DNA from: Haliotis rufescens
Lineage: Eukaryota
Assembly: GCF_023055435.1 (NCBI RefSeq)
Contig: NW_025963784.1
Coordinates: forward strand, 62,001-126,000
Length of the DNA: 64,000 nt
Reading direction: 5' to 3'
The notes under the pieces were generated by a model. It had not been told where the DNA came from. It did no database searches and was given only the letters and a program-made list of their open reading frames with translations. The position numbers were made by a program, and so were the translations under genes. Positions within the stretch are counted from its first letter, which is position 1, and every line of letters begins with the position of its first letter. Positions 15,681 through 63,036 of the stretch are shown piece after piece.

Positions 15681-15691
15681 GGGGAATCCCC
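15681..15691. promoter_or_regulatory. NF-kB/Rel-type site GGGGAATCCCC
   Basis: Matches GGGRNNYYCC; 99 bp upstream of the DD ATG at 15582; position conserved in paralogs. Confidence 0.65.
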
Positions 15692-17934
15692 TGTACCAGG
15701 TTGGACACAACTTCTCTCTCGATCCAAGGCTTCAATCAAGGATTTCGGATTTACGGATTTTCGTATTTACACTGACGGCGTGCGTCAAACTGATGTGTAA
15801 TGAGAACCACATTACAAAAGCCCTATATCAGGGGATACTGCTTGTCATGTGTGTTAAGTGTGGTGTGAGAGACTGTGAACAACCTTCATAAACAATCCAC
15901 ACGACAATAGTGTTGGAAAATAAAAACACAAGGTTGGAATGCCGTTATAAAGCTGAGGGATAAGATAACCCCCAATGTCACGGGATCAGTGAAGAAATTA
16001 AGGATGCAATATTCTCTTTTCAAACAGTGTAAAAGCTGCTTTTTCACAACATTTGAGATTGGCTAACGTGTATTGGTATTAATAGTGAAAAGGTAAGTGA
16101 AAAAAAAATCATGTATATTTGATACTGAGATAATGTTCGTCAAGTTTGTAAATCAAATACGAAGCCATTCATAGAGGGAAGGATTGTATGTTGCTGAATA
16201 TGGGACACAAAAGTCGGATTTTCGGAGTTAGGAGTTCATTAGGCAAATTAGTCTTTAACTTCTTTGATAGGCATTTAGAAGTTGGAGTACTAAAAAGGAT
16301 ACAAATTTATGGATGAACAACTTCTTTATTACAATTAAGAGCGACGTTTCGGTGTAGGTTCTAACACTTGCTTGATAATTGTTATAAAGAAGTTGTTCAT
16401 CCATAAATTATTATCCTTACTTAATGTAGCCTTTGGCTGAAGTGAACATATGAGGGAACAGTCACTTCATTCTTTCTCCACTAAGCCCAGCTGTTCAGTC
16501 ACTAATAGATTCCTCCCTTTCTAGGATACATGCATGACATGTTCATGTTGCGACGAAGAAAATAGACATGGGAATATGGTCTCAAATGAAATAAAAAATG
16601 GATATTTTGAGAGTTTGTTTTGGTACAGTGTATCCCATTGATGTAAGCTTTAAACATATATTATAATTATAGTAGCATCTTTGAAGGTATTAATATAAAT
16701 AGTCAAACATCGTTAAAGAGAGATACGTAAATACTAAGAGTTATCCGAGGTTTGACGCAACTGAAAATAAATAAAGATAGAATACGCAGGGACCAATGTT
16801 TTACTTCGAGACAAACGTAAGTTCGACACACCAAAGTTCGACACAACGGTGTCTGATTGCACGTATCTATTGATCTTGATATAACCCTACAAAATGAATA
16901 TATTAAACAGAATGTCTTTGGCAGGGTAAGTCAAAAATAAAAATAAATATTGTATTTAAGACCTATGGTATTATTTGTGAAGTGCGTCAAATGTAGGACA
17001 TACGTCGGCGTTGTTAATATTTAATACTGGCTCATATAAATAGAAAGCTTTTTTTAAAGAAACACGTTTATGTCTACATATAAACTTCTCTTGAGTCGTA
17101 TATAGGTAAAGGAGAACCCGAATCTTGTGGTCCTTAAAGTTTTATAAGAATATGTCAATCTGTGCATTAATGATGTGCACTGGCCTTAAGAATGTGATCA
17201 CACTTTCTGCATTACTAGACCTGTCGCAAGCTGTCATCCATTATGCCTGCGAACTACTACTTGATAAGTATGTGAATAGAATCAAGCGCCAAAACCCTTT
17301 CCAAATTCACTAGAAAATGTCTGTTAAAATCAATCAGAGTCGATTGCACGATTCCAACCAGGAAATAAACTACCAAATAGCATACAGCTGTTTCAATGGC
17401 AGTAGGTTCCTGTCAGTTCAATATTTAGGGTCGAGATGAAGGGATTCGGTAATTAAGTGTTGCATTGAGTGGGTGTGAAAGTTAGCGTTTTGTGAGAGGC
17501 AGTTCTTTCGTTACGTTAGTTTCAGTTTCCGGATTTTCGGATTACGGATTACGTTTAGGGCAAATCTCTTCACAACTCGCTCAATCTTCCGCTAATATCA
17601 CAAGAGGCAGAAAGACAAGTTCTTACAAAGGGCATCGTAGCAGTTTATTTACAACATTTATTCTGAAAGACATACAAATACAATCACAATGTATCATATA
17701 CGGAAAATATATAACTGTACATATGACGAGCGTTCAGTTCTATACAGAAATAGATGGTAGTCCCTGAAGCATGGTTGAGTGTTCAGTGCAGCACTAGCAC
17801 GAGGAAAGAAAAAATAAGGCATGATTTTACTACATGTTGTTGCGGAAACTCAGTGAAACATACTTATATCCCCACTCGCGTGTTCACAGCAATAAAGCCA
17901 GAGGGTGTACTCCACAGTAATATTCCCGCCCTGA

Positions 17935-18281
17935 TTACCCAGACGTAGATGCTGGTGACAGCAGGATGTTGAGAATGTCCTCCCACTCAATGGTACAGCT
18001 GTCATTGCATCTCCACAATGCTCTGACAAGGACCAGTCCTGTGGCAGATCTTCCGTTTTTCTCCTTCCACTTGGTAAGCATGTGTACAACTTGCATATAT
18101 AGTGAACATGGATGTGCAAAAGTCACTTGTTCGATAACCACGAGAGTAAGTCCAAGTTCGATGCCAACAGACTCGAACCCGATCCCGATGTGACTTGCAA
18201 CAAGGCTGAGATCTCGTCCAGATACAGGAGTATCCAACATCTCGTCATTTACAGCATATGCTTGGTTCGGGTGTCTTGGCC
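17935..18281 (-). pseudogene. Death-domain exon, type B, orphaned by deletion of exons 1-2 and promoter
   Basis: Open 347-nt exon paralogous to 52152-52498; at about 18340 the sequence jumps from the equivalent of about 52556 to about 53530. Confidence 0.7.
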
Positions 18282-18929
18282 CTACAACATTAAACTCACA
18301 ATAAACTACCTATTTACTTGTGTACATTGTGTTTGATAGGCATGGGTAAAATACTTGTGCCGGAAGTATAAACACTTGCCATCAGTCGTGTGTGTATAGC
18401 AATTTGGAAGTTGGAAGACAACTTCTTTCCCGTTCATCTTGCCAGGTGAAAGGAGAAGAAGTAGCCCTGAAATAGAGAAGTTGTAATCGATAAGAGTTTT
18501 ATGTCTGTTTGGATCATTCTTGCACGCAAGTGATATCGATACTAGTCTTCTCTGGGCCATCTGTCTTGTTCAGGTGCAGTAAATAATACACTTGTTTAAG
18601 TTTATTCAGTTAATTGTTCACGTTGGCTTTCATCAGATAAGTGTTGGAAGCCTACGCCGTAATATGATCAATTAGATCAAACCGGTCTATCACACTAAAA
18701 ATCATCGATCCGAAAATCCGACAAAAAGCTAAAAATACATGTCGCTAGAGGAGCTGTACATACCTGATTGTGTACATTGTGTGAGTGTTTTGAGGGAAGG
18801 TTGGTTGGATATATGATGTCTTTCTCCAGTTGATCACAGTACAAAGAAACAGTTATGTTGCTGTGCTGATAAGGAAATGACATACTATGAGTTCGCGGGT
18901 AGTGTCAGTAGGGGGTGTATACGATTTTA

Positions 18930-19948
18930 TCATATAATGGGTAGGTTTCTCGGCAGGATAAAGCCAACGGATAAAAACGATATCCGTTGGGGTCATATGC
19001 GGATAGAGATGCAAATATCAAAGGTCAAGTAGGGACTACTTTCACTGTTTATAAACAAACATGGCGTCGCACTCGTCATTCGGCGATCGAGTCAGAATTA
19101 ACCATCGGGAATCTGGATTAACTACAGCGATAATTGCTATCATTATCAAAAGAACAGTCTAATATACTGAAAATCTGTGTCTCACTGTGACGCAACTAAG
19201 GCATTTTATAAGTTTTGGCAACTTTGGAGATATAAATTTCGAAACAATTTGGCGAGGGCACGAGGCCTTGCCAAGCGGGATCAGTAGCCATATCTGTGCA
19301 TGTAGACCTCTGCGGCTTGAAACCTTCTCCACAAATTAAAATAGTTGGATTTGACGGGAATATGTTTGAATTGTTACCTTGTTTCGTTTTGTCGCTGTGT
19401 GTACATATGAGTACACTTCTTATCGTTATGACAGGACAGACCGACTGTCAACAACGTCTGACCGTGGCCGTGACGTCTCATAGACTAGGGTTAGAGTAGC
19501 TTCCCTTTGACAAAGGGCAGTTACTCTAGCGGACAGACCGATGGATTGCCGCGAAAGGCAATTAAAAACAATTGTTGTTTTGCGTATATGTTGCTTCGCC
19601 ACTGTATAAGAAACAGATTTCAGTTGGAACTATATTGGCTACTGTCACTGTCCGACTGACACATCACTTACCCTGTGACGTAATAAATATTAATGCGCGC
19701 ATTCCAGGAAAACTCGCAATGTTTTGGTAATATTTGTGAGAAAGGGAAAGCGATTTTGAAGCACAGAATTAAAGAATGACATTATATGATAAAGAGGTTA
19801 TCACGCTTGTGTGTTTGGGGATGGTAAATATCCTGAATTAGGAATAAACACTATGTATTTAGCTCGCCAAGGCTCGCTAAATACAATGTTTATTCCTAAT
19901 GCAGGATATTTACCATCCCCAAACACACTCGCGTGATAACCTCTATTT
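18930..19948. mobile_element. About 1-kb insertion ending in a 152-bp hairpin
   Basis: Absent from the paralogous site near 54690; long inverted repeat at 19793-19944. Confidence 0.6.
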
Positions 19949-19949
19949 A

Positions 19950-20519
19950 CGTGCTGAATGGGCTTGAAAATATGAAGAAGAAATGAGTGGAAATATGAGC
20001 AGTGATGTAGATTGTTATATTGAGGAAATGATATAACAAGTTGTCTACATTCAAATGTCTCATCATATAAGTGTGCATCATATAAGTGTGCACAAAACAC
20101 TTGAACTTGTGTAGTTGTCAATAGTGCATAAGATAACCAGGCAGTGATCAATACGTAGTGTAAAATTGACTTCCGCCAGAATAGATATAAATGATGTCTC
20201 ACTGAGACATGAGTGCATAACGAAGAACTTCCTTTGAACTAATTGTCTAGTGGAACGTTCTACTGTTTGATTGATGTCGATGTGCATGGGAAGAAGTTCC
20301 GTCACCTCGCATCTACTCCCGATATATCCCGCGAAGACTGAGGGATCATGTATAGTTAAAATTCTGTTCATTATTATAAAAGGAATATCTGCTAAAACCT
20401 AATCTTCATCAGCTGAAGTGGAATATGCAGAATGGTTATAGTATACAACAATGTACGATTATCCCAGATAAACTCAATATTTTATGGTCAATATATCGTA
20501 CCCACGTTACACAGGCGAA
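19950..20519 (+). pseudogene. Degenerate exon-like block of unknown family (paralogs about 49575-50115, 54695-55276, partial 61100-61350)
   Basis: Conserved among copies, ends at a shared GAA|GT donor-like site, many stops and frameshifts; no product recognised. Confidence 0.35.
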
Positions 20520-22246: not shown

Positions 22247-22434
22247 TTACAGGGACTGCAGGATGTTGAGAATGTCCTCCCATTCAATCGTGCATCTCTC
22301 TTTACATGTCCAGAGTGCTTTGACCAGGACCAGATAGGTGGCCGAACTGCCATTCCACTGCTTCCATATCGTGAGCATAAATCAAGATCTGCATATACAT
22401 TGAACATTGGTGTGCAACTCTGCCCTGTTGAATA
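22247..22434 (-). pseudogene. 3' half of a type A death-domain exon, frameshifted
   Basis: QQGRVAHQCSMYMQIL then frameshift (gcataaatc vs gcataatc) to WKQWNGSSATYLVLVKALWTCKERCTIEWEDILNILQSL*; 5' half missing. Confidence 0.8.
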
Positions 22435-23227
22435 GAGCCTAGGCTATAGAGGAAAATACATTGTCTGTCTGTCTGTTCCAGTTGTTTGTATCTGCAACCC
22501 AACAATTAATTGAGGAGTTGATGGCTTCCGCATACCTAACAGTCATCATAAGTTGGGAGAGCGTTTTCGTATCTCACATGACTCCGGTGCAGGTGAGGAT
22601 TTGGCTGACAGCCGTTCCTTGATGAAACTAATACGTAACACCTGATCACGAACTGCACATGCCCCTTTGACAACCACGGTACAGTGTTTGAACCGATCTA
22701 GGTCCGAACATCCGACAAACGTCAACCATGCAAGACTATAAATATATGTCACTACACGGATTGACATACCGGCGTATATACATTGTAGCAGTGACTGGCA
22801 AAAGGTTCGTTGGAGTTATGATGTCACACTCAAGTGGTTTTCGTACACTATGACACCGATTGATGTTAAAATTAAAGGTAGGGTGCCGTTCCACAATATA
22901 TAATTGTCAATGCACGAGAATAAATAATTTTATGTATGAATGTACCACTGAAAATCAATGATGACACCAGGTGTTTACTTTTCGTATTTGAAAGTCAGAT
23001 TGAAACAAATTTCAATATCGAACGGAGCTGAAACAATGTTGATACAATGATTTTCAAGTAAGCAAACTCAGATCAACCAAATTTCAACATTAGAACAATG
23101 ACAATGCTGGGATACTTCAGTGGAGGTAGACATTATTATAAAGTATGAATATCTGTGTTAGTTTGGGTACAGGTGATTATGAAAATTGTAAAAACACATC
23201 CTCGGTGACGTGTAGTTCATTTTGTCA

Positions 23228-23393: not shown

Positions 23394-24000
23394 TTCTCTC
23401 AGTGAGCATAGGTTGAACCAGGCAATAAAGGTTTCTTACTCAGTAACAATTCTCTAGTCATGTCGCTAGACAACAACATTGTAATTTGTAATATTTTGTT
23501 ATATTTTGATCAAGACTTGATTTGAAACCACAATAAAGTATGTATATTAGGTGGATTCACCTGATCACGAAGACTGACGCTTTTTTGGATTGTTACTCGG
23601 ACATGTACAATGCTCATCTTGAAATATGGTCACACAGTGTACTGCAGAAATAATGCAGGGTAATAACAAATATCATCATTTAACGTCGTTTGGTAAAACG
23701 CGGCCGGGGCTCGAACCACCTATTTTCCTGGGCAGACTCGCTTTATTTTTCCCCGCAAGCCACACACAGAACAACAAACCAATAACAGAAAGTCCCCTGC
23801 GGTACAAGGAGAGACGTTTATGACGCCCTGAGGCGTTATAACAATACCAACACTGATACGTAGACAAATACAGGGTATATAAGAATATTCATGCTTGGAT
23901 GTAGTTCAGCATATAACCTTTTGTCATCTACAGGTTCAAGTGAACAACCGATTATTTATCACGCCTGTGTGACTCATGTGACTATTAATAACTTGACAAA

Positions 24001-27000
24001 ATGGCGCCTAATCCGAAACCACCCGAGCCTTACCGGACAGGGAGAACATCAGCCCTTAAAGTGGAGGAAATTGTTAACATTCTGAGGAGTCGGGATGAGA
24101 GCAAGACCATCCAGACTGCCCCCGCCACACCCCATGGAGGGGAGGTGTACCTCTATAAGATAACCTCGGGAATGAGAGAAGGTGAGGCAGTTGTGTTCAG
24201 GCTTAATATTACCATGAGTCAGGGATTAATACATATGAACAATGTTAATATTTCATGGAAAGCTGATATTATTTTTTACACAATTTGAATTCATTGGGGT
24301 TGTTAAGTACACATGACCAATGTCCTCAAAGCCACATTCATATACATGTACGTTATTAGTAATAGTCTGCTTGACGTCGGGGTCACCCTGCCCTGGTATC
24401 AGCTTCCTTGTACAGCCCTGTGATAACCGGTTTTATGTTTGCTAATATTGTTGACAAGTGATAGTCGTGCAAATAAGTGACTACGTGAATTAAGTTTATT
24501 TGTCTGTATCATCATCAAAACGACTTCTTTTACTTATGTTCTATCTTTGTTTTTCTATTTACTCTTTCCATCCCCTCTACAACAATTGTGTACTTAAATA
24601 ATGAACATTGTTTGATGTCAACTAGTAGAAAATCCATTGTTGGATTAATCAATATTGGCTAAACAAGAATCAAGCATCGTGTTGCATCTCAGAGAAGGAA
24701 AAAAGGACATGGTATTTATCATCACAACCTCTAATACAACATATTTATGCATGACCTTACAGCTGATTTGGCATTAAGGTGGGTTGATTTTAGAGTTATG
24801 TTACACTATTGACTGTTCACAGTTTTATTAATTAACATCTACATCACAGGTGACACACTAACACACAAAGAATTTTGAGGGATAGTTCATCTTCAGGATT
24901 ACAACATTGTTTGCAATGTTATGATATTAATTTCTATTTGCAGATATCTGGAAGGATGACAAATATCACTTCAGAAGTGATGGAACTCGGAAGCAGCCTG
25001 GCTTAAGTCCAGTCATAGTGAAGCAGTACCACAAGGCTTACACCGAGGACAAGGCGACAACAAGGGCCTTTGTCAGAGAAGCATCGTATCTGTACAACCA
25101 GCCTCTGAAACACGTCCTAGTGCAATATATCGGGGACCACACACAAGCACAGCCTGCTCCCCAACGCAAGAAGCGTGGTCAACAGACAGTTAATACCTCA
25201 GGTGACAGTAAATGTAGGAAAGTAGAATCAACTGGTAGAGCTGTGCAGTCGGGGGTCACGGAGAACACTAACTCCAACCTGGACCCTGAAGTTCATTCAT
25301 CACCGACAGAATTGGAAAATAACGGTAAATCAAACACTATTCTAGGTGTAACATTGAATGAAGCAAAGGTGTCAGAGACCGAAACAAAGAATGATCATGA
25401 CACAAATCAGAAACGCTGCAGGTCAGGAGATCATAGAAGTGATGATGACATTGAATATTTGGGTACAACGTCAGGCTCCCCTGTCAAGAAACCTCGTTTG
25501 CAGCCTCAGGTTGACAATGACAACACAGTTGCAACCTGTGTCACTAACACACCCTACGTTTATCTGTACACATTTCTAGAAGAAGTAGAAAGGAATCGTG
25601 ATGTGATAAAGGTCGTGCAACATGTCCTAGCATTATCTAGGTTCTGGAACAAGGACTGTACCAACAAAGGCAATCCGTGCTTGTCACTCATTGAAGAGGT
25701 CGACAAGAACTGGAATCTAGATGCAATTAAAGCAAGGAACTGGGTTAAATGTGCTGTTAATACTGACGGTCTGAGCTGGAACCAAGACGGTTCAGTTTAC
25801 ATAAAGCTCATCGCAGCAGTACTTGTTGGAGCATGTCATACCAGAACTGAAGTTTACGACTTTGTGAAAACACTGAAGGATCCTCCTTCACACCTGCAGC
25901 ATGTACAAGAGGACGTCCCCCTGTCACGTGACTGTACATACACAGTTGGCTGCTACACCATCAGAGGAGATGTTCTGTCTCGCCTGGAAACCAACGAGTG
26001 GCTGACAGATGAAGTAAGTAGTCCACCTGCAATATTTACACAATCACACAAACTACATGCCTAGTTAACCATCCAAGAAAATCATTTCATAGAGCATGGG
26101 AGGCTTTCGATTTCATCAAATGATGTTAGTATTAGATATAAACTGGAGGCGTGAGGGTGGTGAGTTGTTCAGTCACCTAATACTCATTGATAGTGCCTTG
26201 AGGTAGGCGTGGTGTCATGGTGCGTTGGATTAAATTATGAAGAAAGTAATGCACATCTTTGACGTTAACCACTTTGTTGATTCCCATGGTGAATCTGCAT
26301 AGCGAAATGCGGCGCCTTGGACCACTGAGACCCCATCTTAAGATTAATACAGCAACTTTTGGCGGTTTCTTCTTGTTACACCAGTATTAGTTAACTATCA
26401 ATTCATATAATGGTGCTAATTATCAACTCATTGCCATGCATCTCGATTCTGCAATGATGGCACTACTCACCTGCAATGGGCATTGTACACAAAATCTAGT
26501 ACATCACCAGTCAAATTGTCAGTCATTGCTAACAGCCGATATATTCTCTTCATGATGAATATGTGATGTGCAGCGGATCCTGCTTTGATTTGAAATTACA
26601 AGCGTTCCTTTTGAAGCAAACGCATTTGGCGATTAAACAGTATAATAAACATTCTAATAAATGAACTCTTTCCTGTCCAGATCATGGACATATACCTGCA
26701 CCTCCTGGAGAGAGAGTGGTGTTCCCGTGTCAGCTTCCACTGTCTGGTGCTGCCTACAGAGACAATCCTACTGTGGGAGGCAGGACAGTACACAGACAGA
26801 ATAAGGGGGAAAGATGTGAGTGACGTGAGATTTTTATATTTCTTATAATTCTTTCATTCTGAGTGTACCATTGCATGTCCACCCTACCAAGAACAAGGGC
26901 AAGACTCGAAAGATACTTTGTAATAATTGTATGTTTTTTGTGATAACATATGATTCGTCTATGCCATGATTGCGTATTCGGCATGCTAGAAGTTGTCACT

Positions 27001-36000: not shown

Positions 36001-36610
36001 CAAGTCAAATGTGAATGAGAAACATCAAGACGGCAGCACACCTCTACATCTTGCAGCCTGGCATGGACATTGGGAGGTTGTGGAGGTGTTATTACAGAAC
36101 AAGGCAATTGTGGATGGGAAAGATAAGGAAGGCCGCACACCTCTACATGATGCAGCCTGGCAGGGACATAGGAAGGTTGTGGAGGTGTTATTACAGAACA
36201 AGGCAAATATGGATGAGAAAGATAAGGAAGGTTGCACACCTCTACATGATGCAGCCTGGCAGGGACACAGGGAGGTTGTGGAGGTGTTATTACAGAACAA
36301 GGCAAATGTGGATGTGAATGATAAGGAAGGCAGCACACCTCTACATGATGCAGCCTGGCAGGGACATAGGAAGGTTGTGGAGGTGTTATTACAGAACAAG
36401 GCAAATGTGGATGAGAAAGATAAGGAAGGCAGCACACCTCTACATGATGCAGCCTGGCAGGGACACAGGGAGGTTGTGGAGGTGTTATTACAGAACAAGG
36501 CAAATGTGGATGAGAAAGATAAGAAAGGCTGCACACCTCTACATGATGCAGCCTGGCAGGGATACATGGAGGTTGTGGAGGTGTTATTACAGAACAACGC
36601 AAATGTTTAA
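24001..36610 (+). CDS. Copy 2 gene: CG-1-like domain + Ulp1/C48-like protease + STAND-associated helical region + about 70 ankyrin repeats, about 3300 aa (exons 24001-24181, 24944-26013, 26681-26815, 27323-27480, 28021-28138, 28240-28558, 28683-36610)
   Basis: All junctions are GT-AG with matching phases (1,0,0,2,0,1), giving a 9909-nt open frame. Motifs WLTDEIMDIYL, LMPVN..HWVLLV..VVNS, QSDGHSCG. An alternative phase-1 donor exists at 28399. Confidence 0.8.
27414..27562 (+). repeat. 78-bp tandem duplication of an exon end and its splice donor
   Basis: GAACAGTGGGCGTGG..TGTACAACACT(G/A)GAGGTAG starts at 27414 and 27492; donors at 27481 and 27559. Confidence 0.85.
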
Positions 36611-36616
36611 GAGAAA
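29984..36616 (+). repeat. Coding tandem array, 67 x 99 bp ankyrin units
   Basis: 6633 bp = 67 x 99 with no net indels; higher-order periods of 12, 35 and 36 units. Confidence 0.95.
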
Positions 36617-42878: not shown

Positions 42879-44007
42879 TTACACTGGCAAGGAGGACCGC
42901 CACTGCAGGATGTTGAGAATGTCCTCCCATTCGATCGTGCAACTCTCTTTACATGTCCATAGTGCTTTGACCAGGACCAGATAGGTGGCCGAACTGCCAT
43001 TAAACTGCTTCCATTTAGTGAGCATAATCAAGATCTGCATATACATTGAACATGGGTGTGCAACTCTGCCCTGTTGGACAGCCACAATGCTGAGCCCAAG
43101 TTCAATCCCGACATGCTCAAATCCCATCCCGATATGTCTCGCAACAAGTCCGAGATCTCGTGGAGTTAAAGGAGTCTTCAGTCTCTCATTCACACAGCGT
43201 GTTGAACCTACACAGAAATCTGTATTACTTGATGTAACACCAATTCTACCACAAAGGCTCACATAAACAGGTTTCTTTCTGTTTTATGTGATTGACATGT
43301 GGTATCGAATTAACCTTTATTTATCTCCAATGCTCATCGATATTCCAAATAAGCAATACAAATTGACGGAAAAAGAAGTTGCACAAATCGTCCCATATAC
43401 ATATATGTCATCATAATAACGATCAAAATATGTTGAAAGTTATGCTGAACACATATGGCATATATTGCCAAATTTCTGAAATGAAATCATCAAATCATGA
43501 TAAAGAATGTCGAACAAAATTATCAGTTTAATATGGGCAGTTATAATTAACGCACCTCTGCTTATGATCTGTTGGATGTAATACTCGATCAGCTCTTTGC
43601 TTGAAAGGTGCATTCTCTAGAACGAAAAACACACACTATCAATTGTGTGTTATATGATATGAACGAGTATTAGTATTTCCTGAAAGGCTTTGAACTCAAA
43701 TACAGTATTGTTCGTCAGGTGGGATCAAACTTCCACATTATAACACTTGGTAACGTACCACCACTGAATATGGAATGATAAACAGAGACAATGTCTGCAG
43801 GAACAGTAGTGAGTATATAAAGACTTTGAACAGTATTTTCGTTACCTTATATCCACTATTTAGCATACAGAATGCCACTTGTTTAGTGTTAAACGATGTG
43901 TACATATATTACTACCATTAGTGTACGTTAATGAACATGTCTAAAAGGGAGTTATTAAGACGTACCTGATACTGAAGTCTGGAGAAGCACGAGGCAATAT
44001 TCCCCAT
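42879..44007 (-). CDS. Acylated death-domain-only protein, type A, 143 aa (exons 44007-43966, 43616-43556, 43207-42879)
   Basis: MGNIASCFSRLQYQ / RMHLSSKELIEYYIQQIISR / GSTRCVNERL..LVARHIGMGFEHVGIELGLS..Q..MLTKWK..G..AT..LVKAL; canonical splice sites, open frame. Confidence 0.85.
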
Positions 44008-44104: not shown

Positions 44105-44114
44105 GGGAAGCCCC
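44105..44114. promoter_or_regulatory. NF-kB-type site (GGGGCTTCCC on the - strand)
   Basis: Matches GGGRNNYYCC; 98 bp upstream of the ATG at 44007. Confidence 0.6.
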
Positions 44115-45157
44115 TACACAAGAGGGGACACTACTTCTCACTCTCTCTCGCGATTGCTTCAACCAAAGATTTAGGAATTTCGGATTTTCGGATTTTTGGA
44201 TATCCAAACTGATATAAAGGCGGAGTGGTGTGTAGTGGAGTAAGAGATTATAATAAACCTACATGGGGGTCATACCTCTTGCACTTTAAGTTTGTTGTTA
44301 CATACTATGACCAACCATAATGAGGAAATAATATTACAGCAGTGTCGATAACTGACGCGTGGTCACAAAAGCAACATGCGTATGCCGCTTACACAGGGTT
44401 ACGATGGTTTCTGAAGTAGGAGTGTTGTCGCCAATACAATCTATTACTGTAGTGTATAGATGAGAGAGCAGTCACAACTTCACCGAGATGCCTCTCTCCA
44501 CTACGTCCAGCTGTTCAGTCAAAAACCAAGCCATCCCGTTCAAGGTGCCATGACTTATATGTTAGTCTTGCATGGTAGACCATAGACATGGGAATATTGT
44601 CACAAAAATGGTCTATTAAAAAGGATAATAGGTCTCAATCAAAATAAGTATCTAGAAATCATGACAATACGTGTGATAATGCAAGACAAAACTAAATAAA
44701 TGTTGAATGCAAAAGCTGTGGTACATTGTTGATGCTGGGGGACCTGGTCAACGTGTAGGATATATGTCGGCGTTGTTTTGGCCTTGATATGGAATACCAT
44801 CTAATATATATATAAATTAGGCTTTGTTTGTAAACTGCAATCAGCAGCCTTAAACTAAAAGAACAAGACCATAGAATGGAACAGAACTTGATGTTGAACG
44901 TGTCGGCAATACGAAAATGTCCATGATTGGACTATAATAATGCTTGGATATCTTCTCCAGCTGTAGTCAAGTCGTCTTTATGGACAGACAGACAGACAAA
45001 CTATTCAAAACGAACACTACAAGGTCTACGCATCATGAATAAAGTTGACAATAATTTCACATACATTCTAATCGTTGACTTTCTTTGTGACGATCAACAA
45101 CATCAGATCAGATTGTGGATGACAGAAGAACCTAATTAGTTATCACTTGCCCATTGA

Positions 45158-46845: not shown

Positions 46846-46887
46846 CTGATATCGAAATCCTAACAAGCATGACCTAATATTCCCCAT
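46846..46887 (-). CDS. Orphan DD-family first exon MGNIRSCLLGFRYQ
   Basis: 42 nt, ATG, CAG|GTAGG donor, upstream TATA and kB site; no DD exon of its own found. Confidence 0.55.
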
Positions 46888-46958
46888 GATCATCATCCCA
46901 GCTACGAATCCGCAGCGTGTGGTGTTGTGACACAGTTAACACAACGTAGCCAGCCCAG

Positions 46959-46992
46959 TTTATACATGCATGACTGATGGGAGGGGACTCCC
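46959..46992 (-). promoter_or_regulatory. TATA-like box plus kB site GGGGACTCCC (46983-46992)
   Basis: Same layout as the other DD promoters. Confidence 0.6.
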
Positions 46993-47990
46993 TTGTACAA
47001 TTTACCGGCACATTGTAAATCTCAGACGTGTGTAACCAACAAATTACTGTCATTTCTCTAAATAACGGACTTCGGATTTCCGGGTTTTCGGCTATGAATC
47101 ACCATGTCATTCAGTTACATAGATTGTCAGATGTGCTCCTGTCGTTTCCAGAGTGAATGAGCGTTTCAATTTCATTCGAAAATAGGACCCAATGTTTGTT
47201 AAGCAATTGGCACACTCTCACTGCAGATACTAATCTATCGGACTAGGACTATTGTTTGTCTGAAATGGGGGTTGCGCACTACGCAATAAAACGAAACGAA
47301 ACACTTCGGGCATATCGCAGGGAGTTCATGCAAGATGTGAACAAGACAATCCGGCAATCCGACATAGTATATGACGTTTCGTTCATTTGTCAAAATCAGT
47401 TCATAACACTGTGGTTGAGACAAGCAGTTAGGTCTAGGTAGGATACGGACCTCATGTTATACTACTCATCAGGCATTTAGTACAGGCTGGGCCCTGAGGT
47501 ATATATGAAAACTAAGTGGTATTAAATGTAATGGAGATGAAGGAAACTCCCTTACAAACAACATGAAGGTTTATCTGAAAGCGTACGACGCCGTTGGGTT
47601 CGGATGACACCCACACAGCTGAATGACCAACTCTGACCACCTGATTCGCTCCAGTCAGCTCTTGCAGCAACCATAGGATACTGGTGTCTTATTGATCACC
47701 GGAATATACACAGGGCAGATGCAATGTAGTATAATCACATGATCATCATCAGTAGCATAAGTTTGGACTCTTGGAACTACTACCGGACTGTCAGTAACAC
47801 CACGTAGACTAACATAGACTCAAACATCCATATGTGCAATGTATAAATGAACAAAAAAAACTGTAGTTAAAAGCAACATTTATTCGTCAAACATAAGGAA
47901 ATATCAAACATGTACGTTATTCTTAACATATACTAGAGCAGTGAGTCGACAGTGTTGTTGTTAGGTCAGGGGTGCACTACAAATGACACA

Positions 47991-48744
47991 CTAAGTCGAT
48001 GGTGATTGGAGAATGTTTAGTATGGCATCAATTTCGAGCGTACATCTACCTCTGCATCTCCACAACGCTCTGACGAGCACAAGGCCAGTGGCAGATCTGC
48101 CATTCCTCTCCTTCCACTTGGTGAGCATGTGTAGGGTCTGCATATAAAGTGAATTATGGTGTGAAACTTTGCCTTGTTCGATCACCACAAGATTGAGTCC
48201 AAGTTCGATTCCAATAGATTCAAACCCGATCCCAATATGATTTGCCACCAGGCTGACACCTTTCTGAGAAACAGGGATTCTCAGTCTTTCCTCATTTACA
48301 GGGCCTACAAAACAAATGTGAATGAAAATTATAGATGAGTCTTGAGTTTTGAGTAATTTTGTTTTTGACTTTTCAAAATTATATTTTAACAAACACTTTA
48401 CAAATCAGAACAGATACGGAAAGTATGTTGCGAGACATAGTACATCTTAATATATGCAGAGGAGAATACATATTCTCTCCACGTCTACAGTATAGCATAT
48501 GTGTACTTAAGATATTATTCGAAGTTCATATTGTATATTTAACATAATCAAATTGATCAAGATGAAAAGGACATATTGAATGACATTAAATAAACGAACC
48601 TGTCAATGTGACCAATGGATTATATGAACGGATCATCTGGTTGTGTGGCTGGTGAAGTCTCTGGAAGGGAGATGTTTATACCATCACATGTCATGTATAA
48701 AATTAAATGTTGCAAGCTTATGTCATATATACTTTTCGTGCTGT

Positions 48745-48779
<35 letters not shown>

Positions 48780-48997
48780 ACACACGCATACACGCACACA
48801 CACACGCACACGCACACGCACACACGCACGTGCGCACGCACGTACACACACACACAGAAATAAAGACAGACTGTATAAGACCATGCAACCACAAACGCGC
48901 ACATTGACATGCAAACAATGAGCTCGTTAGTTTCTAATAATTAAAGTTCACCTACCCGATACCTAAATCCAGACCAGCATGACACATAATTCCCCAT
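47991..48997 (-). CDS. Acylated death-domain-only protein, type C, 138 aa (exons 48997-48956, 48660-48600, 48304-47991)
   Basis: MGNYVSCWSGFRYR / RLHQPHNQMIRSYNPLVTLT / GPVNEERLRIPVSQKGVSLVANHIGIGFESIGIELGL..MLTKWKERNGRSAT; phases 0/1 fit. Confidence 0.85.
48748..48856. repeat. (CA)n/(CACG)n microsatellite in intron 1 of the type C gene
   Basis: Visible directly. Confidence 0.95.
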
Positions 48998-49061: not shown

Positions 49062-49094
49062 TATTTATATGTAGGCTTTGTGAAGGGGATTTCA
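49062..49094 (-). promoter_or_regulatory. TATA box (TATAAATA on -) plus kB-like GGGGATTTCA (49085-49094)
   Basis: 65-97 bp upstream of the ATG at 48997. Confidence 0.55.
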
Positions 49095-49284
49095 CTAAAT
49101 TTGTCGACAATAATTTCTGTTGCAGAAAACCAAAACCGCCGAGTTTTTATTGACGGGCGTTTATTGAAGCAAAACGCATGCTATACATCATAAATCCGAA
49201 AATCCGACTTGTTGTACATTTACTTCACAATGTCAACTAGTTGGCGGAAACGTCTTTAGGCTGTGTGTGTGTGTGTGTTCTTTG

Positions 49285-52151: not shown

Positions 52152-53297
52152 TTACACAGACACAGTGGACGGTCCCTGAAGGATGTTGAGAATGTCCTCC
52201 CACTCAATGGTACACCTGTCATTGCATCTCCACAGTGCTCTGACAAGGACAAGGATGGTTGCAGTTCTCCCGTTCTTCTCCTTCCACTTTGTAAGCATGT
52301 GCACAACTTGCATGTATAGTGAATAAGGGTGTGCAAACGTGACTTGTTCGATAACCACGAGAGTAAGTCCAAGTTCGATGCCAACAGACTCGAACCCGAT
52401 CCCGATGTGACTTGCAACAAGACTGAGATCTCTTCCAGATACTGGAGTATCCAACATCTCGTCATTTACAGCATATGCTTGGTTCCAGTGTGTTGGCCCT
52501 ACAACATTAAACTCACAATAAACTACCAATAGACTTGTGTACATTTTGTTTGATAGATGATGTAACAACATTCGGTTCGCTTTCATTAATCCAAATTATT
52601 TCACTAAACAAAGAAAAATACGATACATACATACAGTAATTTAAAAAGAAATTAATGGGGTACACATAGAACTAAACTTCCTAAAATAGAATTATAAGAC
52701 AAACAGATTGTTTAAATAAAGAACTAAAGGATGACTATGCTTGTCATAAGAGGCGACCAGCGGGATCGGGTGGTCAGGCTCGCTGACATGGTTGATGCAT
52801 GTTATTGTATCCCAATTGCGTAAATCGATACTCATGATGTCAATCAGTGGATTGTCTGGTCCAGATTCGATTATTTACAGACCACCGTCATATAGCTGGA
52901 ATATTGCTGCGTGCGACGTTAAACAAAAAACAAGCAAACCAAATAACAAACAATGTAATTTAACGTACATGTAACTCTCTCTGTCAGATTGGGTTCATTT
53001 TGGCAGTTTATCGAGTTCTCTGTGTTGGACAGCCTCTGGAATCGAATAAACACAGTTTAAAACACGATTGATAGCTACGCCATCACAGCAATAAAACAAT
53101 AAAGATAATCTTACATAAACTAAACAAGACAATGCAATGCCAAATTCACGTGAACATGTACACACGCATTACACATATTGACACGCTAAAGTTCGAATAG
53201 GGAAAGCATGTGAAATATGCCTATATACATATGTATACATAACATCTTGACCCACCTGATATCGGGATATTGGCCAGCATGAAACAATATTACCCAT
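52152..53297 (-). CDS. Acylated death-domain-only protein, type B, 151 aa (exons 53297-53256, 53035-52969, 52498-52152)
   Basis: MGNIVSCWPISRYQ / RLSNTENSINCQNEPNLTERVT / WPTHWNQAYAVNDEMLDTPVSGRDLSLVASHIG..; open frame, GT-AG sites. Confidence 0.82.
52730..52950 (+). mobile_element. 5'-truncated SINE in DD intron 2 (duplicate 63618-63840; related fragments about 50863-51030 and 61533-61700)
   Basis: GACTATGCTTGTC(A/G)TAAGAGGCGAC..CCGTCATATAGCTGGAATATTGCTG plus (AAAC)n tail. Confidence 0.7.
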
Positions 53298-53383: not shown

Positions 53384-53415
53384 TTTATATATCGGACTAG
53401 CATAAGGGGATTCCC
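53384..53415 (-). promoter_or_regulatory. TATA box (TATATAAA on -) plus kB site GGGGATTCCC (53406-53415)
   Basis: Perfect kB consensus 109 bp upstream of the ATG at 53297. Confidence 0.7.
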
Positions 53416-55374
53416 ATTGTTGATTCACGTAGATTAGCAGTCACCGGCATATGCTACAGTCAACTTACAACCGATTTTCAGATCGCAGATCGCGGAGTTC
53501 GGACTTTAGGATTTCATATCAGGCTGATGGGTATGGGTAAAATAGGCCGGTGATGATGCAGGTGAAGGGACAAGAAGTAGTCCTGAAACGTCGTTACAAA
53601 TAATAGAGAAATAGTGATCTCATGTCTGTCTTCTTGTAGGCTATTCAACAAGTCATATCGATATTTGTCCTTTCTTGGCCATTTATCATGTTCAGGTGCA
53701 GTAAATAATAAACCTGTTTATGTTGCCTTATGTTCAATGAAGTCATATTGTAAATTGACATTGGGATGGTTTTATATCCAAGTTGTTGACGCGTTGGCAC
53801 AACACAACGAAGATCCAGTTAAAATTCCCATCAAGGGAACAATGTCTGACGTCATGTGTCTCTCGTCGTGTAATTGAATAAGGCTCCGTGTGCCACAAAC
53901 GAATATTATATTTAGGCTAAAGAGTGGCAATGGTGATTGGGATTATTAAAGGTTGTGTTTACTTCGATAATAATTTGTCATAAACCTGGTTTAATACTTT
54001 TAATTCATCCAGAGATATTGACCCCTAGATTCAACCAAAATGAGCTGATTCCTTTTATAGCTACCATTTCACTACTTGGTGTATTCAGTTCACTTGTTCA
54101 TTCGTCTCCTTCATCAGCTCAGGTGTAGATGAGCCTGTCGTCCTCATTTTCCTTATCAGCAATACACAGTATACAAGAACCATTAAATACATCCCATCAC
54201 ATTTCCTTCGAGGTTACGATTACAAATGCTTCTGTCTTCAGTCTATGTTACAGACAATAACTGAATAAATACTAAAATAGCCAACTAATAGTATACACAT
54301 TCAGATATCATCCGACCTAATGTCTTCAGGGGTTTGCACATAATATTTTCGGCTCAAAGCAATATTACCAAGGAATACGATATGTATAAATCGGCATGTG
54401 CAGGAATCTGACACTGGTATATGATACATTAAAAGTGAACCTTGTTTAAACCGATCGATTACGATAAAAATCCTTCATCCGAAAATCCGAACAAGGCTAT
54501 AAATACATGTCGCTGTAGGAACTGTTCATACCGGAATGTACACATTGTGTCAGGGCTATCCGGGGAGGTTGGTTGTCTATATAGTGTCATACTCAAGTTG
54601 ATCACAGTACGTAGGAACAATTATGTTGCTGTGCTGATACAGAAATGATATACTATGAATTACATATGTCAGTAGCGGGGTGTATGCATTTTAACGTGCT
54701 ACATTCATTTGAAAAGTTGAAGAAGAAATGAGGGCAAATATGAGCAATGATCTGGATTGGGATATTGAGGAAATGATATGATACGTTGTTATCTACATTC
54801 ACATGTCTAATCATATAAGTGTTCACTAAAACACTTAAACTGGTTTAATTGTCGATAGTGCATAAGATAATCAGGCAGGGATCAATACGTCGGGTACAAA
54901 TGACTTCCGCCAGAATATATACAAATGATATCTCACTGAGATATGAGTACATAACAAAGAACGTCCTTTGAACTAATAGTCTGATTGAACCGTCTTCTGC
55001 TTGATTGATGTCGATGTGCATGGGAAGCAGCTCATCACTTCACATCTACTCCCGAAACATCCCGCAAAGACTGATGGAGCATGTGTAGACAAAAGCAAAA
55101 GAAATCCTTTTCGTAATTATAAAAGAAAATCTGCTAAAACTTCATCATTATCAACCGATTGTGCAGGTTGCAAAGAGGAATGTGTAAAATGGTTATTGTA
55201 TAGGACAATGTCCCATTATCCCAGCTAAACTCAATTTTATATGGCTACGATATCGTACCCACGATACACAGGCGAAGTGAGCATCAGAACAATTGGTTGG
55301 ATGGGGGGGGGGGGGGGGGGGGGGGGGTTGGTGGGTGCGTGCGTGCGTGCGTGCGAGTGTTGCTGCTTGTAATA

Positions 55375-57750: not shown

Positions 57751-58957
57751 ACAGGAAATAAATAGTAAAGTATAAATAGGTTTGTGGGGAACTCCATGCC
57801 AGTATGTTTCATCCAGTATGGGTGTCAGCGGGCTCCTAATTGTCGCTCTGCATGTTCTCGTGTTTAGAGCTAAGTGTTTGTAATTTTCTTTAATATTCAA
57901 ACCGGAAGACAATCTTTTCATAAGTATCAATCGTGGAAAAATATGCATTTCATTTGAATAAATATTATGGTTCAACAATAGTGTCAACTCCCCAGAGGGA
58001 CAGGTAAAACAATGTGAACTCTCCCTACCTCATATTGGCTTTCTATTGTGTAAGCCACACTCTATAAGTACACAAAATAATGAGGCTGTTATATAATTAT
58101 TAACACGTTATAATGTTAAAATTTTCCCAAATAGTTACCCTGCAAAGCCCTGCACTGGTCTTCTATCACTGCCCCCCACGTGAGACGTATATAATCCATG
58201 TTCGGGGCCGTCATGTTTGTTCAGATTCATATATACGATCACATCAGTACAAATAAACTTGGAGAAATTGCTTCGCATCAAGATATAGTTTTATTGGATG
58301 TGCTTTTATTGACATATGTATTGATTATTTCCATGTCCACTGCAAAACATGCTTTAATGCGTACTTTACAACTGTCACGTGTCTGTGTACATGCATGTTT
58401 ATATATTATTTTCTCTATGTCATTTTGGTGACTTCAGACTATTAGTCTGGTCTCTTGTTATGGTCAGGTATAAAGACGCTTTCTCTGATAACAGACATAG
58501 CTGTGCAGACTGTTTAATTATTCATATAATTGTGAACACCCGATGTCATCACTGATGTTCAGTGATCCTTCTACATGTATCATTCATCCTCATCCTGCCT
58601 CTTTACGCCAAATGGAATCTGTTTCGGCAGCTAATCGAGACTGGTTATTCTCTGGTGTTCACGTCTTATATTTAAATGTGTAACTTTTTAACATATGAAT
58701 AATTACAGCACGTATAGATCATGATCTGATTTGTTACATGAGATCGCAATAAATTCTTCACTAATGGGATAAAATCTACCGATTTAGACATATTTGCCCT
58801 CATAGCATTGCGCTATCGCGTGTTGTCTGTGATAAACACAAACGAATACTCTTGACCTACTCAAAGGGAGTTTCCTCCTTCAGTCAATGGGCTGACAGTG
58901 GCCCACATTGTTTATCACAGATGTTGAATGGCATCCCATGCGTGAATACAGTCACGG

Positions 58958-59030
<73 letters not shown>

Positions 59031-60266
59031 GAGCACTAAGTGACATAGAAACAGGAAATAAATAGTAAAGTATAAATAGGTTTGTGGGGAACTCCATGCC
59101 AGTATGTTTCATCCAGTATGGGTGTCAGCGGGCTCCTAATTGTCGCTCTGCATGTTCTCGTGTTTGAGAGCTAAGTGTTTGTAATTTTCTTTAATATTCA
59201 AACCGGAAGACAATCTTTTCATAAGTATCAATCGTGGAAAAATATGCATTTCATTTGAATAAATATTATGGTTCAACAATAGTGTCAACTCCCCAGAGGG
59301 ACAGGTAAAACAATGTGAACTCTCCCTACCTCATATTGGCTTTCTATTGTGTAAGCCACACTCTATAAGTAGACAAAATAATGAGGCTGTTATATAATTA
59401 TTAACACGTTATAATGTTAAAATTTTCCCAAATAGTTACCCTGCAAAGCCCTGCACTGGTCTTCTATCACTGCCCCCCACGTGAGACGTATATAATCCAT
59501 GTTCGGGGCCGTCATGTTTGTTCAGATTCATATATACGATCACATCAGTACAAATAAACTTGGAGAAATTGCTTCGCATCAAGATATAGTTTTATTGGAT
59601 GTGCTTTTATTGACATATGTATTGATTATTTCCATGTCCACTGCAAAACATGCTTTAATGCGTACTTTACAACTGTCACGTGTCTGTGTACATGCATGTT
59701 TATATATTATTTTCTCTATGTCATTTTGGTGACTTCAGACTATTAGTCTGGTCTCTTGTTATGGTCAGGTATAAAGACGCTTTCTCTGATAACAGACATA
59801 GCTGTGCAGACTGTTTAATTATTCATATAATTGTGAACACCCGATGTCATCACTGATGTTCAGTGATCCTTCTACATGTATCATTCATCCTCATCCTGCC
59901 TCTTTACGCCAAATGGAATCTGTTTCGGCAGCTAATCGAGACTGGTTATTCTCTGGTGTTCACGTCTTATATTTAAATGTGTAACTTTTTAACATATGAA
60001 TAATTACAGCACGTATAGATCATGATCTGATTTGTTACATGAGATCGCAATAAATTCTTCACTAATGGGATAAAATCTACCGATTTAGACATATTTGCCC
60101 TCATAGCATTGCGCTATCGCGTGTTGTCTGTGATAAACACAAACGAATACTCTTGACCTACTCAAAGGGAGTTTCCTCCTTCAGTCAATGGGCTGACAGT
60201 GGCCCACATTGTTTATCACAGATGTTGAATGGCATCCCATGCGTGAATACAGTCACGGAATGAGAG

Positions 60267-60330
<64 letters not shown>

Positions 60331-60712
60331 ACTAAGTGACATAGAAACAGGAAATAAATAGTAAAGTATAAATAGGTTTGTGGGGAACTCCATGCCAGTA
60401 TGTTTCATCCAGTATGGGTGTCAGCGGGCTCCTAATTGTCGCTCTGCATGTTCTCGTGTTTGAGAGCTAAGTGTTTGTAATTTTCTTTAATATTCAAACC
60501 GGAAGACAATCTTTTCATAAGTATCAATCGTGGAAAAATATGCATTTCATTTGAATAAATATTATGGTTCAACAATAGTGTCAACTCCCCAGAGGGACAG
60601 GTAAAACAATGTGAACTCTCCCTACCTCATATTGGCTTTCTATTGTGTAAGCCACACTCTATAAGTACACAAAATAATGAGGCTGTTATATAATATAATA
60701 TAATAACGGAAT

Positions 60713-60782
<70 letters not shown>

Positions 60783-60803
60783 CATAGAAACAGGAAATAA
60801 ATA
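57751..60803 (+). repeat. About 1.3-kb near-identical tandem repeat (units start at 57751, 59051, 60347 partial), each ending in (GA)n
   Basis: Units differ by a few bases; (GA)n at about 58961-59032, 60262-60329, 60713-60780. Confidence 0.9.
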
Positions 60804-60849
60804 TGCAAACAATGAACTCGTTAGTTTCTAATAATTAAAATTCACCTAC

Positions 60850-60891
60850 CCGATACCCAAATCCGGACCAGCAGGAGACATAATTCCCCAT
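60850..60891 (-). pseudogene. Orphan type C first exon MGNYVSCWSGFGYR, with TATA and kB-like GGGGATTTAC (60977-60986)
   Basis: Duplicate of 48956-48997; downstream exons are replaced by the 1.3-kb repeat in this assembly. Confidence 0.6.
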
Positions 60892-63036
60892 TGTCGGCTC
60901 TGTACATACGTTTTACCCTCTGCTGTGGAGATCTGCTGTCCGTTCAATCGCTCGCTATTTATGAAGGCTTTGTGAAGGGGATTTACCTTCAAACTTCAAA
61001 CATTTCATGAAGATTTTTCTGCAGAATGTTTCCTTCGCAAAAAATAAATTTGAAAAGGACCACATTGTATTATATCCAGGAAATACTCAATGGGAAAAAA
61101 TTACGAGTTGAATGGGCTTGAAAACATGTAGAGGTACAGATCTAGAAGAGGGAACAATAGTGGTGGTGTGGATTGGCATACTGGGGAAATGATACAATAA
61201 TGTTGTTAACCAAATTAAGCTGTGTCGTCATGTAAGTGAGCACCAACACACTTGAAGGTTGTCCTTTTCAATAGTACACAATATAAGATGAACACAAAAA
61301 GGTGAGTAAGTCAGTTCGCATTGAGAGCTCAATGGGATATAACAACATAGCGATTGGCTTAAATTCAATCAAGGTTCGGCATCATAGGCCTGATCAAGGC
61401 ATTCCAGAAATAGGAAATTAGGTAGATTTTTTTACGAAATATGACATGCTGCCTTTGAAAGTTATTTTCAATTCTATCCCATACTATGACCTTTACAGGG
61501 AGATTTCACACCTCCTCACTCCCTTACTTAAATGGATCGGGTGGTCATGCTTGGTGACTTGGTTGACAGCGTGGCGTAGTAACCCGACGACGTGAATCAT
61601 TGCTCATGATAGTGATCCCTGGATTCTTTGGCCGATACTTTACAGGCCACCGTGATATGTCAGGAGTATTGCTGGTGGCGGCATTTTGCAACAACAAATA
61701 GCTTTTATTAAATTTGTGAGAGTGGCGGTTGCTTCTGGTAGAGCATTACATGCTAATCATTCTGTGGATTACCTGGTGTCATCGCTGATTTTCATTGATT
61801 CATTCATTTACTTCTCATCACTATTTTGATCTTTTCCATGCATAAAGAAAGTGACAGTAATTCAAGCTTCTTTATAATTGAGATCATTACTTGTAATTGT
61901 GTCATTCGAATTCTTTATCAAGCTAGTTGTAGAATCTAAAAGGGTATATTATTGAATACATAAAATCGGATTTTCGAAACAACTAGAATTTTTACCACTA
62001 CAAATCTGTTGCAATGGTGCATAGATATGAGTGCAGTCACAACTTTATTTACGCATGTTTCGTCATAACGCCAATCTTTTCCGCTATCCCTTTGCAGTCA
62101 GCATGCAAAAGCTTTCACATATTATCCTACGATAGTTGTCTAAATGTTTTATGGTAAAAGTGTAGAGGACTGGTTAGGATAATCATTTCCCTGTCTGTGA
62201 CGGGTGCCAGTGGGACAGGATACCTTTTCGCAAACTTCTGGTATCATCTCTATTTGATTTCATACCTGAGAACCACTACAGCCCATCACCAGTATTTGCA
62301 AACTTCAAACCAGGAAATATTCTTACAAATAGAATACAGCTACTATAGAAAGTAAAACAAAAATTGTCGTCCATAATCAATCAGCAAGATTCTACGACCG
62401 GCAAACCCTTGTGAAATTGTTCCAAATAAGAGACAACAGATAAACAGCTCATTTGGAACAACATAACACAAATATTTTGACTGTTCAATCGTGACGGGAC
62501 ACTGTAAAATCAAATCATATTGTGAGACGCAATTATGTCTCCGGATTTTCGGATTACGGATCACGTTTAGGGTGCATGTAATCATCCCTCGCTAGTTCTT
62601 CCTCAAATATCACAAGAGACAGAAAGACAAGTTATTACAAAAGGCATCACAGCTATTTATTAAAAGCATTTATTCTCAACACATACAAATAGAATCACAC
62701 TGTATTACAAACGGAAAAGATATTAATGTTCAAATGAAGAGTGTTCAGTGTGCAACTTGAGGATACAGAAATCATTCAGGTCAGTCAGGATCCCAAATTA
62801 TCTACATAAGCCTCAGTGAACCTAGCATCTCGACTCGATATTTCAAAGCGGGAACCCAATCAATCAATGATAACTGTACATGAGAAGAGTGTTCGCTCGT
62901 ACGAGAGAACATAAATGTAGACATGATTTCTCTGTATGTTGTCGGGGAAACTCAGTGAAGCATTACTTATATACCCACTCGTGTATTCACAGCGTAAAGC
63001 AACACAGCGTCAGGTGAAAACAGCTCTCCGACTTGA

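What the first reader, a model, noticed from the sequence alone, without database searches (positions are those of the whole stretch)
15681..60986. All six DD first exons have a kB-type site at nearly the same distance
Sites at 15681, 44105, 46983, 49085, 53406 and 60977 lie 86-109 bp upstream of the ATG; in four cases they sit just upstream of a TATA box. Four match GGGRNNYYCC and two are one base off, while the surrounding promoter sequence has diverged between types. This suggests Rel-inducible genes, possibly a negative feedback loop.
Basis: partly seen in the sequence, partly recalled or inferred. Interest (0 to 1): 0.7.

Follow-up and report, generated by a model that had tools for sequence, protein, structure and literature searches.

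The report
Conserved NF-kB switch, abalone death-domain array
About a hundred tandem copies of a small abalone death-domain gene keep an NF-kB-type DNA site just ahead of their start while the DNA around it has diverged, so they are likely switched on together during infection and would then likely act as membrane-anchored dampers of immune or cell-death signalling; binding, induction and damping are untested.

Summary
All six sites are present, 86-109 bp before minus-strand ATGs (4 perfect, 2 one off). Corrections: they represent five promoter types, only three head intact genes, two exons have no death-domain (DD) exon of their own, and a seventh DD copy has lost exon 1 and its site. The window lies in a 1-Mb abalone array with 100 such first exons: 75 carry a perfect site, 17 one mismatch (background 0.6% and 9.9%). 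Across nine types the site is 86% identical, the flanks 26-29%, and dS between DD clades is 1-2, so the site is under selection. The commonest form is the 11-bp palindrome GGGGA(A/T)TCCCC, a p50-type rather than Rel-type site; an IkB-like gene in this genome has the same site-plus-TATA layout. The proteins are RAIDD-like DD-only proteins with a predicted lipid anchor. Induction is likely, negative feedback plausible; neither was tested. The scan noted this array before on other DNA (e1-9879501, e1-9881846).

The parts
15681..15691 (-). kB-type site, full 11-bp palindrome, type-7 promoter; no TATA follows
15746..15760 (-). tandem AAATCCG element upstream of the site
14666..15582 (-). DD gene A1: exons 15582-15541, 15371-15311, 14994-14666; premature stop at codon 99 of 143
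17935..18309 (-). DD exon whose exons 1-2 and promoter were deleted (about 740 bp missing against a sister copy)
22253..22445 (-). frameshifted DD fragment
42879..44007 (-). DD gene A2, intact, 143 aa: exons 44007-43966, 43616-43556, 43207-42879
   Evidence: Pfam Death E 5e-4 below cut-off
44105..44114 (-). kB-type site (10-bp form), type-9 promoter; TATA decayed in this copy
44181..44195 (-). tandem AAATCCG element
46846..46887 (-). type-C first exon with no DD exon of its own in any copy; in phase with exon 2 of the next type-A gene
46959..46992 (-). kB-type site 46983-46992 and TATAAA 46959-46964
47064..47092 (-). degenerate tandem (A/G)TCCG element, exact AAATCCG at 47073
47991..48997 (-). 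DD gene D1, intact, 138 aa: exons 48997-48956, 48660-48600, 48304-47991
   Evidence: Pfam Death E 8.5e-6
49063..49094 (-). kB-type site 49085-49094 (one mismatch) and TATAAAT 49063-49069
49192..49206 (+). tandem AAATCCG element in inverted orientation (10 of 13 copies of this type)
52152..53297 (-). DD gene B2, intact, 151 aa: exons 53297-53256, 53035-52969, 52498-52152; exon 2-3 join seen in contigs of probable RNA runs
   Evidence: Pfam Death E 3.2e-6
53385..53415 (-). kB-type site 53406-53415 and TATATAA 53385-53391
53500..53515 (-). variant tandem element (AAATCCT-AAAGTCCG)
60850..60986 (-). truncated type-D copy: first exon 60891-60850, weak TATA 60956-60963, one-mismatch site 60977-60986; no exons 2-3 and no AAATCCG element upstream
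63037..63411 (-). DD exon of the next gene; its first exon lies 191 bp beyond the window end with a perfect site at -157

Best explanation
The six sites are copies of a conserved promoter element that is likely bound by an NF-kB-family factor and would switch on a tandem array of small death-domain-only genes after immune challenge, whose likely lipid-anchored products would act as decoys damping death-domain signalling at membranes. Shown: the site, its position before a TATA-like box, its conservation against saturated flanks, a second tandem AAATCCG element, the DD-only three-exon genes under purifying selection. Inferred: (1) binding by NF-kB, most likely a dimer containing the p50-type subunit (about 0.8); (2) induction (about 0.7); (3) cooperation with an unknown factor on the AAATCCG element (about 0.6); (4) myristoylation at Gly2 and acylation at Cys7 (about 0.75); (5) dominant-negative action on a RAIDD/PIDD- or TNFR/RIP1/FADD-type assembly, closing a feedback loop (about 0.4).
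For: 75 of 100 first exons perfect, 17 one mismatch, against 0.6%/9.9% background. Site identity across nine types 0.86, flanks 0.26-0.29; best-match-anchored null 0.357 +/- 0.029, maximum 0.485 in 5000 draws; dS between the four DD clades 1.0-2.0, dN/dS 0.10-0.26, at which neutral identity would be 0.30-0.45. Within types 26 extra alleles over 77 site columns against 233 over 490 flank columns (approximate P 0.03). 38 of 100 carry exact GGGGA(A/T)TCCCC, which occurs 914 times in 1.33 Gb. The site-plus-TATA pattern matches 92 times genome-wide against 5 for the reversed control; of 20 non-array loci read, one heads an IkB-like gene (ankyrin repeats, DEGYES motif, IkB-alpha E 5e-32) and one a weakly TNF-like gene (E 0.025). 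Two Rel-homology genes exist, one with the p50-type GPSHGG loop. AATCCGAAAATCCG occurs 136 times against 2 for the control, 91 of the 100 listed places in array contigs. Of 85 open first exons Gly2 is kept in 80, Ser/Thr6 in 73, Cys7 in 72. Model pLDDT 84.7, best fold match RAIDD DD.
Against: No binding, induction or function data. Intact genes do not keep the site better than broken or DD-less ones: 41 of 54 versus 34 of 46, P 0.82; the DD-less type C has it in 11 of 11. Two of nine types use a 10-bp form, not the palindrome; several types lack a clear TATA (types 6, 7, 13). The types share one ancestor and cluster into about five groups, so they are not nine independent origins. One contig of another organism (X6) has a 6-nt insertion inside the type-C site. 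The exon 1-exon 2 join was not seen, and one X1 contig joins exon 2 to a different upstream exon about 37 kb away. None of 20 non-array kB-TATA promoters has the AAATCCG element, so the composite is not a general immune module. 18 of the 20 non-array loci gave no identifiable immune gene. DD identity to named adaptors is only 26-41%, too low to name a target.
Confidence: 0.6

Rival explanations
1. The promoter is NF-kB-driven, but the products are positive: membrane-tethered DD seeds that nucleate or amplify death or NF-kB complexes, or baits for pathogen effectors that attack death domains.
For: Same promoter evidence. A lipid anchor concentrates a DD at membranes, and DDs assemble by nucleation (established knowledge). 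Expansion to about 100 copies in four clades is more typical of recognition or effector genes than of a brake (inference).
Against: No second interaction domain in 138-151 aa; single death-fold proteins in mammals mostly inhibit (PMC7555848, passages); DD cores are under purifying, not diversifying, selection.
Confidence: 0.22
2. The site is a real binding site but mainly repressive or basal: held by a p50-type homodimer without activation domain or by a ZAS/Schnurri zinc-finger protein, with the AAATCCG factor giving the activating input.
For: 11-bp G-rich palindrome is the p50 homodimer spacing (PMC10527052); ZAS3 binds the kB motif and competes with NF-kB (PMC1361774, abstract start in listing); the second element is as conserved as the site.
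Against: The IkB-like and TNF-like genes, classic induced targets, have the same layout. I did not search the genome for a Schnurri gene.
Confidence: 0.13
3. The site is only inherited or spread by gene conversion within the array and has no present function.
For: All copies share an ancestor; broken copies keep the site as well as intact ones.
Against: Flanks are at random identity and dS is 1-2 while the 11-mer stays at 0.86; conversion tracts of 11 bp only are implausible; site-ATG spacing shifts by indels while the site persists.
Confidence: 0.05

Closest known systems
Proximal kB element plus TATA of NF-kB primary-response genes (IkB-alpha, IL-8, insect antimicrobial peptide genes; recalled); MHC class I-type 11-bp p50 site
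   Same: Consensus match, position 7-18 nt before a TATA-like box, same layout at this genome's IkB-like gene
   Different: Repeated in about 100 tandem copies; paired with an array-specific tandem AAATCCG element; binding untested
CARD-only and PYD-only proteins (COPs, POPs)
   Same: Small single death-fold proteins from lineage-specific duplication, proposed as inducible feedback inhibitors (PMC7555848, passages)
   Different: Domain is a DD; predicted N-terminal lipid anchor; about 100 copies instead of a few; not next to an evident parent gene; inhibition not shown
RAIDD/CRADD (CARD-DD adaptor; PDB 2o71, 2of5)
   Same: Best fold match (E 1.3e-4, rmsd 1.7); NCBI names two relatives 'CRADD-like'; five CARD-DD proteins among library hits scanned
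   Different: No CARD; 26% identity; ankyrin DDs, Roco-DD and multi-DD proteins score similarly, so descent from RAIDD is not established
DEAF1 response element (two TTCG half-sites)
   Same: The second element read on the other strand has two CpGs 6 nt apart, one of DEAF1's preferred spacings (PMC4274154, passages); SAND genes with KDWK exist in the genome
   Different: Invariant part here is CGGATT, DEAF1 prefers TTCGGG; the first half-site often lacks TT

Membership tests
NF-kB response element | match to GGGRNNYYCC | tested here: met
   4 of 6 perfect in window; 75 of 100 on the contig
NF-kB response element | conserved above flanks at a promoter-proximal position | tested here: met
   0.86 versus 0.26-0.29; null 0.36
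NF-kB response element | cognate factor encoded in the genome | tested here: met
   two Rel-homology genes, Rel-type and p50-type (typing of the loop motif is recalled)
NF-kB response element | bound by NF-kB and needed for induction | not testable with these tools
   needs EMSA/ChIP, reporter, challenge RNA
p50-type 11-bp site | GGGRN-N-NYCCC with outer G:C pairs | tested here: inconclusive
   51 of 100 copies, the majority form in 7 of 9 types; types 1 and 9 are 10-bp
Death domain (PF00531) | profile match and six-helix fold | tested here: met
   4 of 5 window DD exons above cut-off; model and fold search
RAIDD/CRADD | N-terminal CARD | tested here: not met
   only Death found; whole proteins 138-151 aa
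COP/POP-like decoy | single death-fold domain, lineage-specific duplication | tested here: met
   hits above 1e-30 are Haliotis only
COP/POP-like decoy | binds and inhibits a cognate adaptor | not tested
   no partner identified; no complex job run
N-myristoylated proteins | Met-Gly-x-x-x-Ser/Thr start (motif recalled) | tested here: met
   Gly2 80 of 85, Ser/Thr6 73 of 85
N-myristoylated proteins | modification and membrane location | not testable with these tools
   needs labelling or mass spectrometry
DEAF1 response element | two TTCGK half-sites, CpGs 6-11 nt apart | tested here: inconclusive
   spacing met, first half-site variable

The most novel reading that the evidence does not exclude
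Abalone have a megabase immune regulon of about 100 NF-kB-induced, lipid-anchored death-domain-only decoys, a DD counterpart of the primate COPs/POPs, gated by a two-key promoter whose second key, the array-specific AAATCCG repeat, is read by the CG-1-domain/Ulp1/ankyrin protein encoded in each repeat unit of the same array, so that the cluster carries its own regulator.
Probability: 0.08. Interest if true: 0.85.

Novelty: new variant of a known kind. Interest (0 to 1): 0.5.

Why it matters
The promoter layout itself is textbook. What is unusual is its scale and cargo: about 100 co-regulated DD-only genes with a predicted lipid anchor, for which my searches found no paper. If induced and inhibitory, they would be a mollusc feedback layer on death or NF-kB signalling, a copy-number-variable locus of interest for disease resistance in farmed abalone, and a ready set of natural promoter variants for defining mollusc p50-type versus Rel binding rules and for finding the factor behind an undescribed motif.

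Tried and rejected
No RNA holder listed on record; four probable-RNA contig sets also cover introns and promoter, so no start site, level or induction can be read. Cross-species view of the type-B promoter: listed differences fall in the flanks and none inside 53406-53415, but 18 rows were cut and paralogues are mixed: not counted. Search for the composite AAATCCG-kB outside the array with a 20-50 nt gap gave 0; the gap was too short even for array copies, so it is uninformative. Seven non-array loci with the 14-mer: no kB site within 300 bp in the six displayed. The second DD cluster on C445 (about 36% identical) has no MG-N first exon and no adjacent site of this kind. No DD remnant behind type-C exons. 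IRF/ISRE reading of the second element set aside because ATCCG, not repeated GAAA, is what persists. Single-sequence fold of the CG-1-like region failed (pLDDT 36.5). No complex prediction was run, as no same-species partner was singled out. Two papers (Drosophila DEAF-1 immunity; NF-kB dimer binding preferences) were not held and are recalled only. Supplements were not read.
Full report
Setting. The window is G000:C6:62001-126000 of a 1.33-Gb genome. The closest named homologues are Haliotis proteins, one on a contig of the same length as C6, so this is red abalone (inference). The DD exon matches at least 150 places (the listing limit), nearly all on C6, C72 and C594:41.59-41.92 Mb; C72 and parts of C594 repeat C6 stretches and may be assembly duplicates, so I counted on C6 only, which I fetched whole.

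Observation. The six sites are at the stated places, 99, 98, 96, 88, 109 and 86 bp upstream of minus-strand ATGs; four are perfect and two one base off. A TATA-like box follows in four, one of them weak. The genes have three exons: 42 nt coding for MGNxxSC(W/F)..., a 61-67 nt exon, and the DD exon. In the window three genes are intact (143, 138, 151 aa), one has a stop at codon 99, two first exons have no DD exon (46887, 60891), one DD copy lost exons 1-2 and promoter by a deletion of about 740 bp, and one has its first exon just beyond the window. So 'all six DD first exons' is true of the exons but overstates the number of working, independent genes.

Is it more than chance? On C6 100 first exons were found. 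In the -165..-70 zone 75 have a perfect site, 17 one mismatch, 8 none; random zones of the same contig give 0.6% and 9.9%. Because the copies are related, the real test is conservation. Nine promoter types with three or more copies (five minor clusters with 7 copies in all were left out) give 0.86 mean pair identity in the 11-bp site and 0.26-0.29 in the flanks. Anchoring on the best match inflates identity, so I ran the same anchoring on random zones: 0.357 +/- 0.029, maximum 0.485 in 5000 draws. dS between the four DD clades is 1.0-2.0 with dN/dS 0.10-0.26 (67 open DD cores); neutral DNA would keep 0.30-0.45 identity. Within seven types the site is somewhat less variable than its flanks (26/77 versus 233/490 alleles per column; the test is approximate). 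Against: intact genes do not keep the site better than broken or DD-less ones (41 of 54 versus 34 of 46, P 0.82), which fits recent breakage but gives no copy-level evidence of selection; and the types fall into about five related groups.

Which factor? 38 of 100 copies have exact GGGGA(A/T)TCCCC and 51 of 100 an 11-bp form; types 1 and 9 use 10-bp forms. The p50 homodimer prefers 11-bp spacing through His64 contacts with the outer G (PMC10527052, passages). The genome has two Rel-homology genes; one reads RFRYECEGRSAGSI (Rel type), the other RFRYECEGPSHGGL (p50/p105 type, with the His; typing recalled). The site therefore points to a dimer with the p50-type subunit rather than to Rel alone. 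As a positive control, the pattern site-(8-22 nt)-TATA matches 92 times against 5 for the reversed pattern; 24 loci lie outside the array, of which I read 20 in detail. One heads an IkB-like gene with a second kB site upstream (ankyrin repeats, DEGYES; IkB-alpha E 5e-32, though long ankyrin proteins score higher), one a weakly TNF-like gene (E 0.025, below cut-off); 18 stayed unidentified. ZAS/Schnurri proteins also bind kB motifs (PMC1361774, listing) and remain a rival.

A second element. A tandem AAATCCG repeat lies roughly 30-130 bp upstream of the site in all nine types (per-type counts, lowest 1 of 3 in type 7; background 4% per 200 bp). In type 4 it is inverted, as expected of a binding site. 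AATCCGAAAATCCG occurs 136 times genome-wide against 2 for the control, and 91 of the 100 listed places are on C6 and C72; it also sits 3' of DD genes and about 1 kb upstream of promoters. It is absent from the 20 non-array kB-TATA promoters. Its two CpGs are 6 nt apart, a spacing DEAF1 prefers (PMC4274154, passages); DEAF1 has immune roles in mammals (PMC3750155, passages) and, as recalled, in Drosophila, and SAND genes exist here, but the invariant letters differ from the DEAF1 consensus. A second lead is the gene repeated in the array units on the plus strand, with a CG-1-like domain (E 7e-5, 23.0 bits against cut-off 23.5), a Ulp1 protease and ankyrin repeats.

The proteins. Pfam finds only Death. 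The model (pLDDT 84.7) matches RAIDD DD best, then PIDD and ankyrin DDs. Hits above 1e-30 are Haliotis only; the rest are 23-41% identical DDs of CARD-DD, Roco and multi-DD proteins (21 proteins scanned). The N-terminus keeps Gly2 in 80, Ser/Thr6 in 73 and Cys7 in 72 of 85 open first exons and recurs in three other Haliotis species: a predicted myristoyl plus palmitoyl anchor (motif recalled). Contigs of two probable RNA runs from two studies join exon 2 to exon 3 (X1 matched between calls by length and depth). The exon 1-2 join was not seen; one X1 contig brings a distal exon instead.

Mechanism. Most likely an NF-kB dimer binds next to the TATA box after challenge, with help from the AAATCCG factor, and turns on many copies at once; the products anchor at membranes and, having a DD but no effector domain, compete in DD assemblies, as COPs and POPs do for CARD and PYD (PMC7555848, passages). 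The promoter half is well supported by sequence; the feedback half is analogy. Rivals are positive or bait function (0.22), repressive or basal occupancy (0.13) and neutral inheritance (0.05).

Novelty. Five literature searches (listings only) showed no description of the array or its promoter; the library lacks most subscription journals. The scan's own notes already hold this array from other DNA, with the same reading and a second motif; these are not independent support. Verdict: real, selected, ordinary in kind as a promoter, unusual in scale and cargo; interest 0.5.

Noticed in passing
window 3127-10211 and 23992-38122 (+); many copies along C6: Gene with CG-1-like domain, Ulp1 (Peptidase_C48) protease and long ankyrin arrays, co-duplicated with the DD genes; two paralogue types. 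The first window copy lacks its middle part. The domain mix recalls Mutator-like transposon cargo (recalled).
   Followed up: partly
G000:C594 about 41,947,395 (minus): Distal exon with GT donor joined to DD exon 2 in one probable-RNA contig; it offers an in-frame Met without Gly2, i.e. a possible unanchored isoform from another promoter.
   Followed up: partly
window 46846-46992 and 11 further copies on C6: Type-C first exon never has its own DD exon yet keeps site and TATA in 11 of 11 copies; may be an alternative first exon or enhancer for the next type-A gene; several copies have a stop in the exon.
   Followed up: partly
L152 (G000:C57:11319739): kB-TATA promoter followed by a gene with no Pfam match (exons at L152:1031-1429 and 3573-4271); unnamed candidate NF-kB target.
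   Followed up: no
L151, L153, L159, L160, L161: Five dispersed loci share a related kB-TATA promoter sequence, apparently one more gene or repeat family.
   Followed up: no
G000:C445:17.67-17.74 Mb: Second cluster of nine DD exons about 36% identical, without the MG-N exon.
   Followed up: partly
G000:C605:45.76-45.77 Mb: Two dispersed copies in opposite orientation keep site, TATA-like box and AAATCCG element.
   Followed up: partly
window 57751-60694: 1.3-kb tandem triplication, 99% identical, inserted where exons 2-3 of the 60891 copy would be; it carries its own kB-consensus matches (57786, 58866, 59086, 60167, 60382).
   Followed up: no
window 18918-19950: 1-kb insertion 95% identical to a stretch on C35, probably a mobile element.
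   Followed up: no
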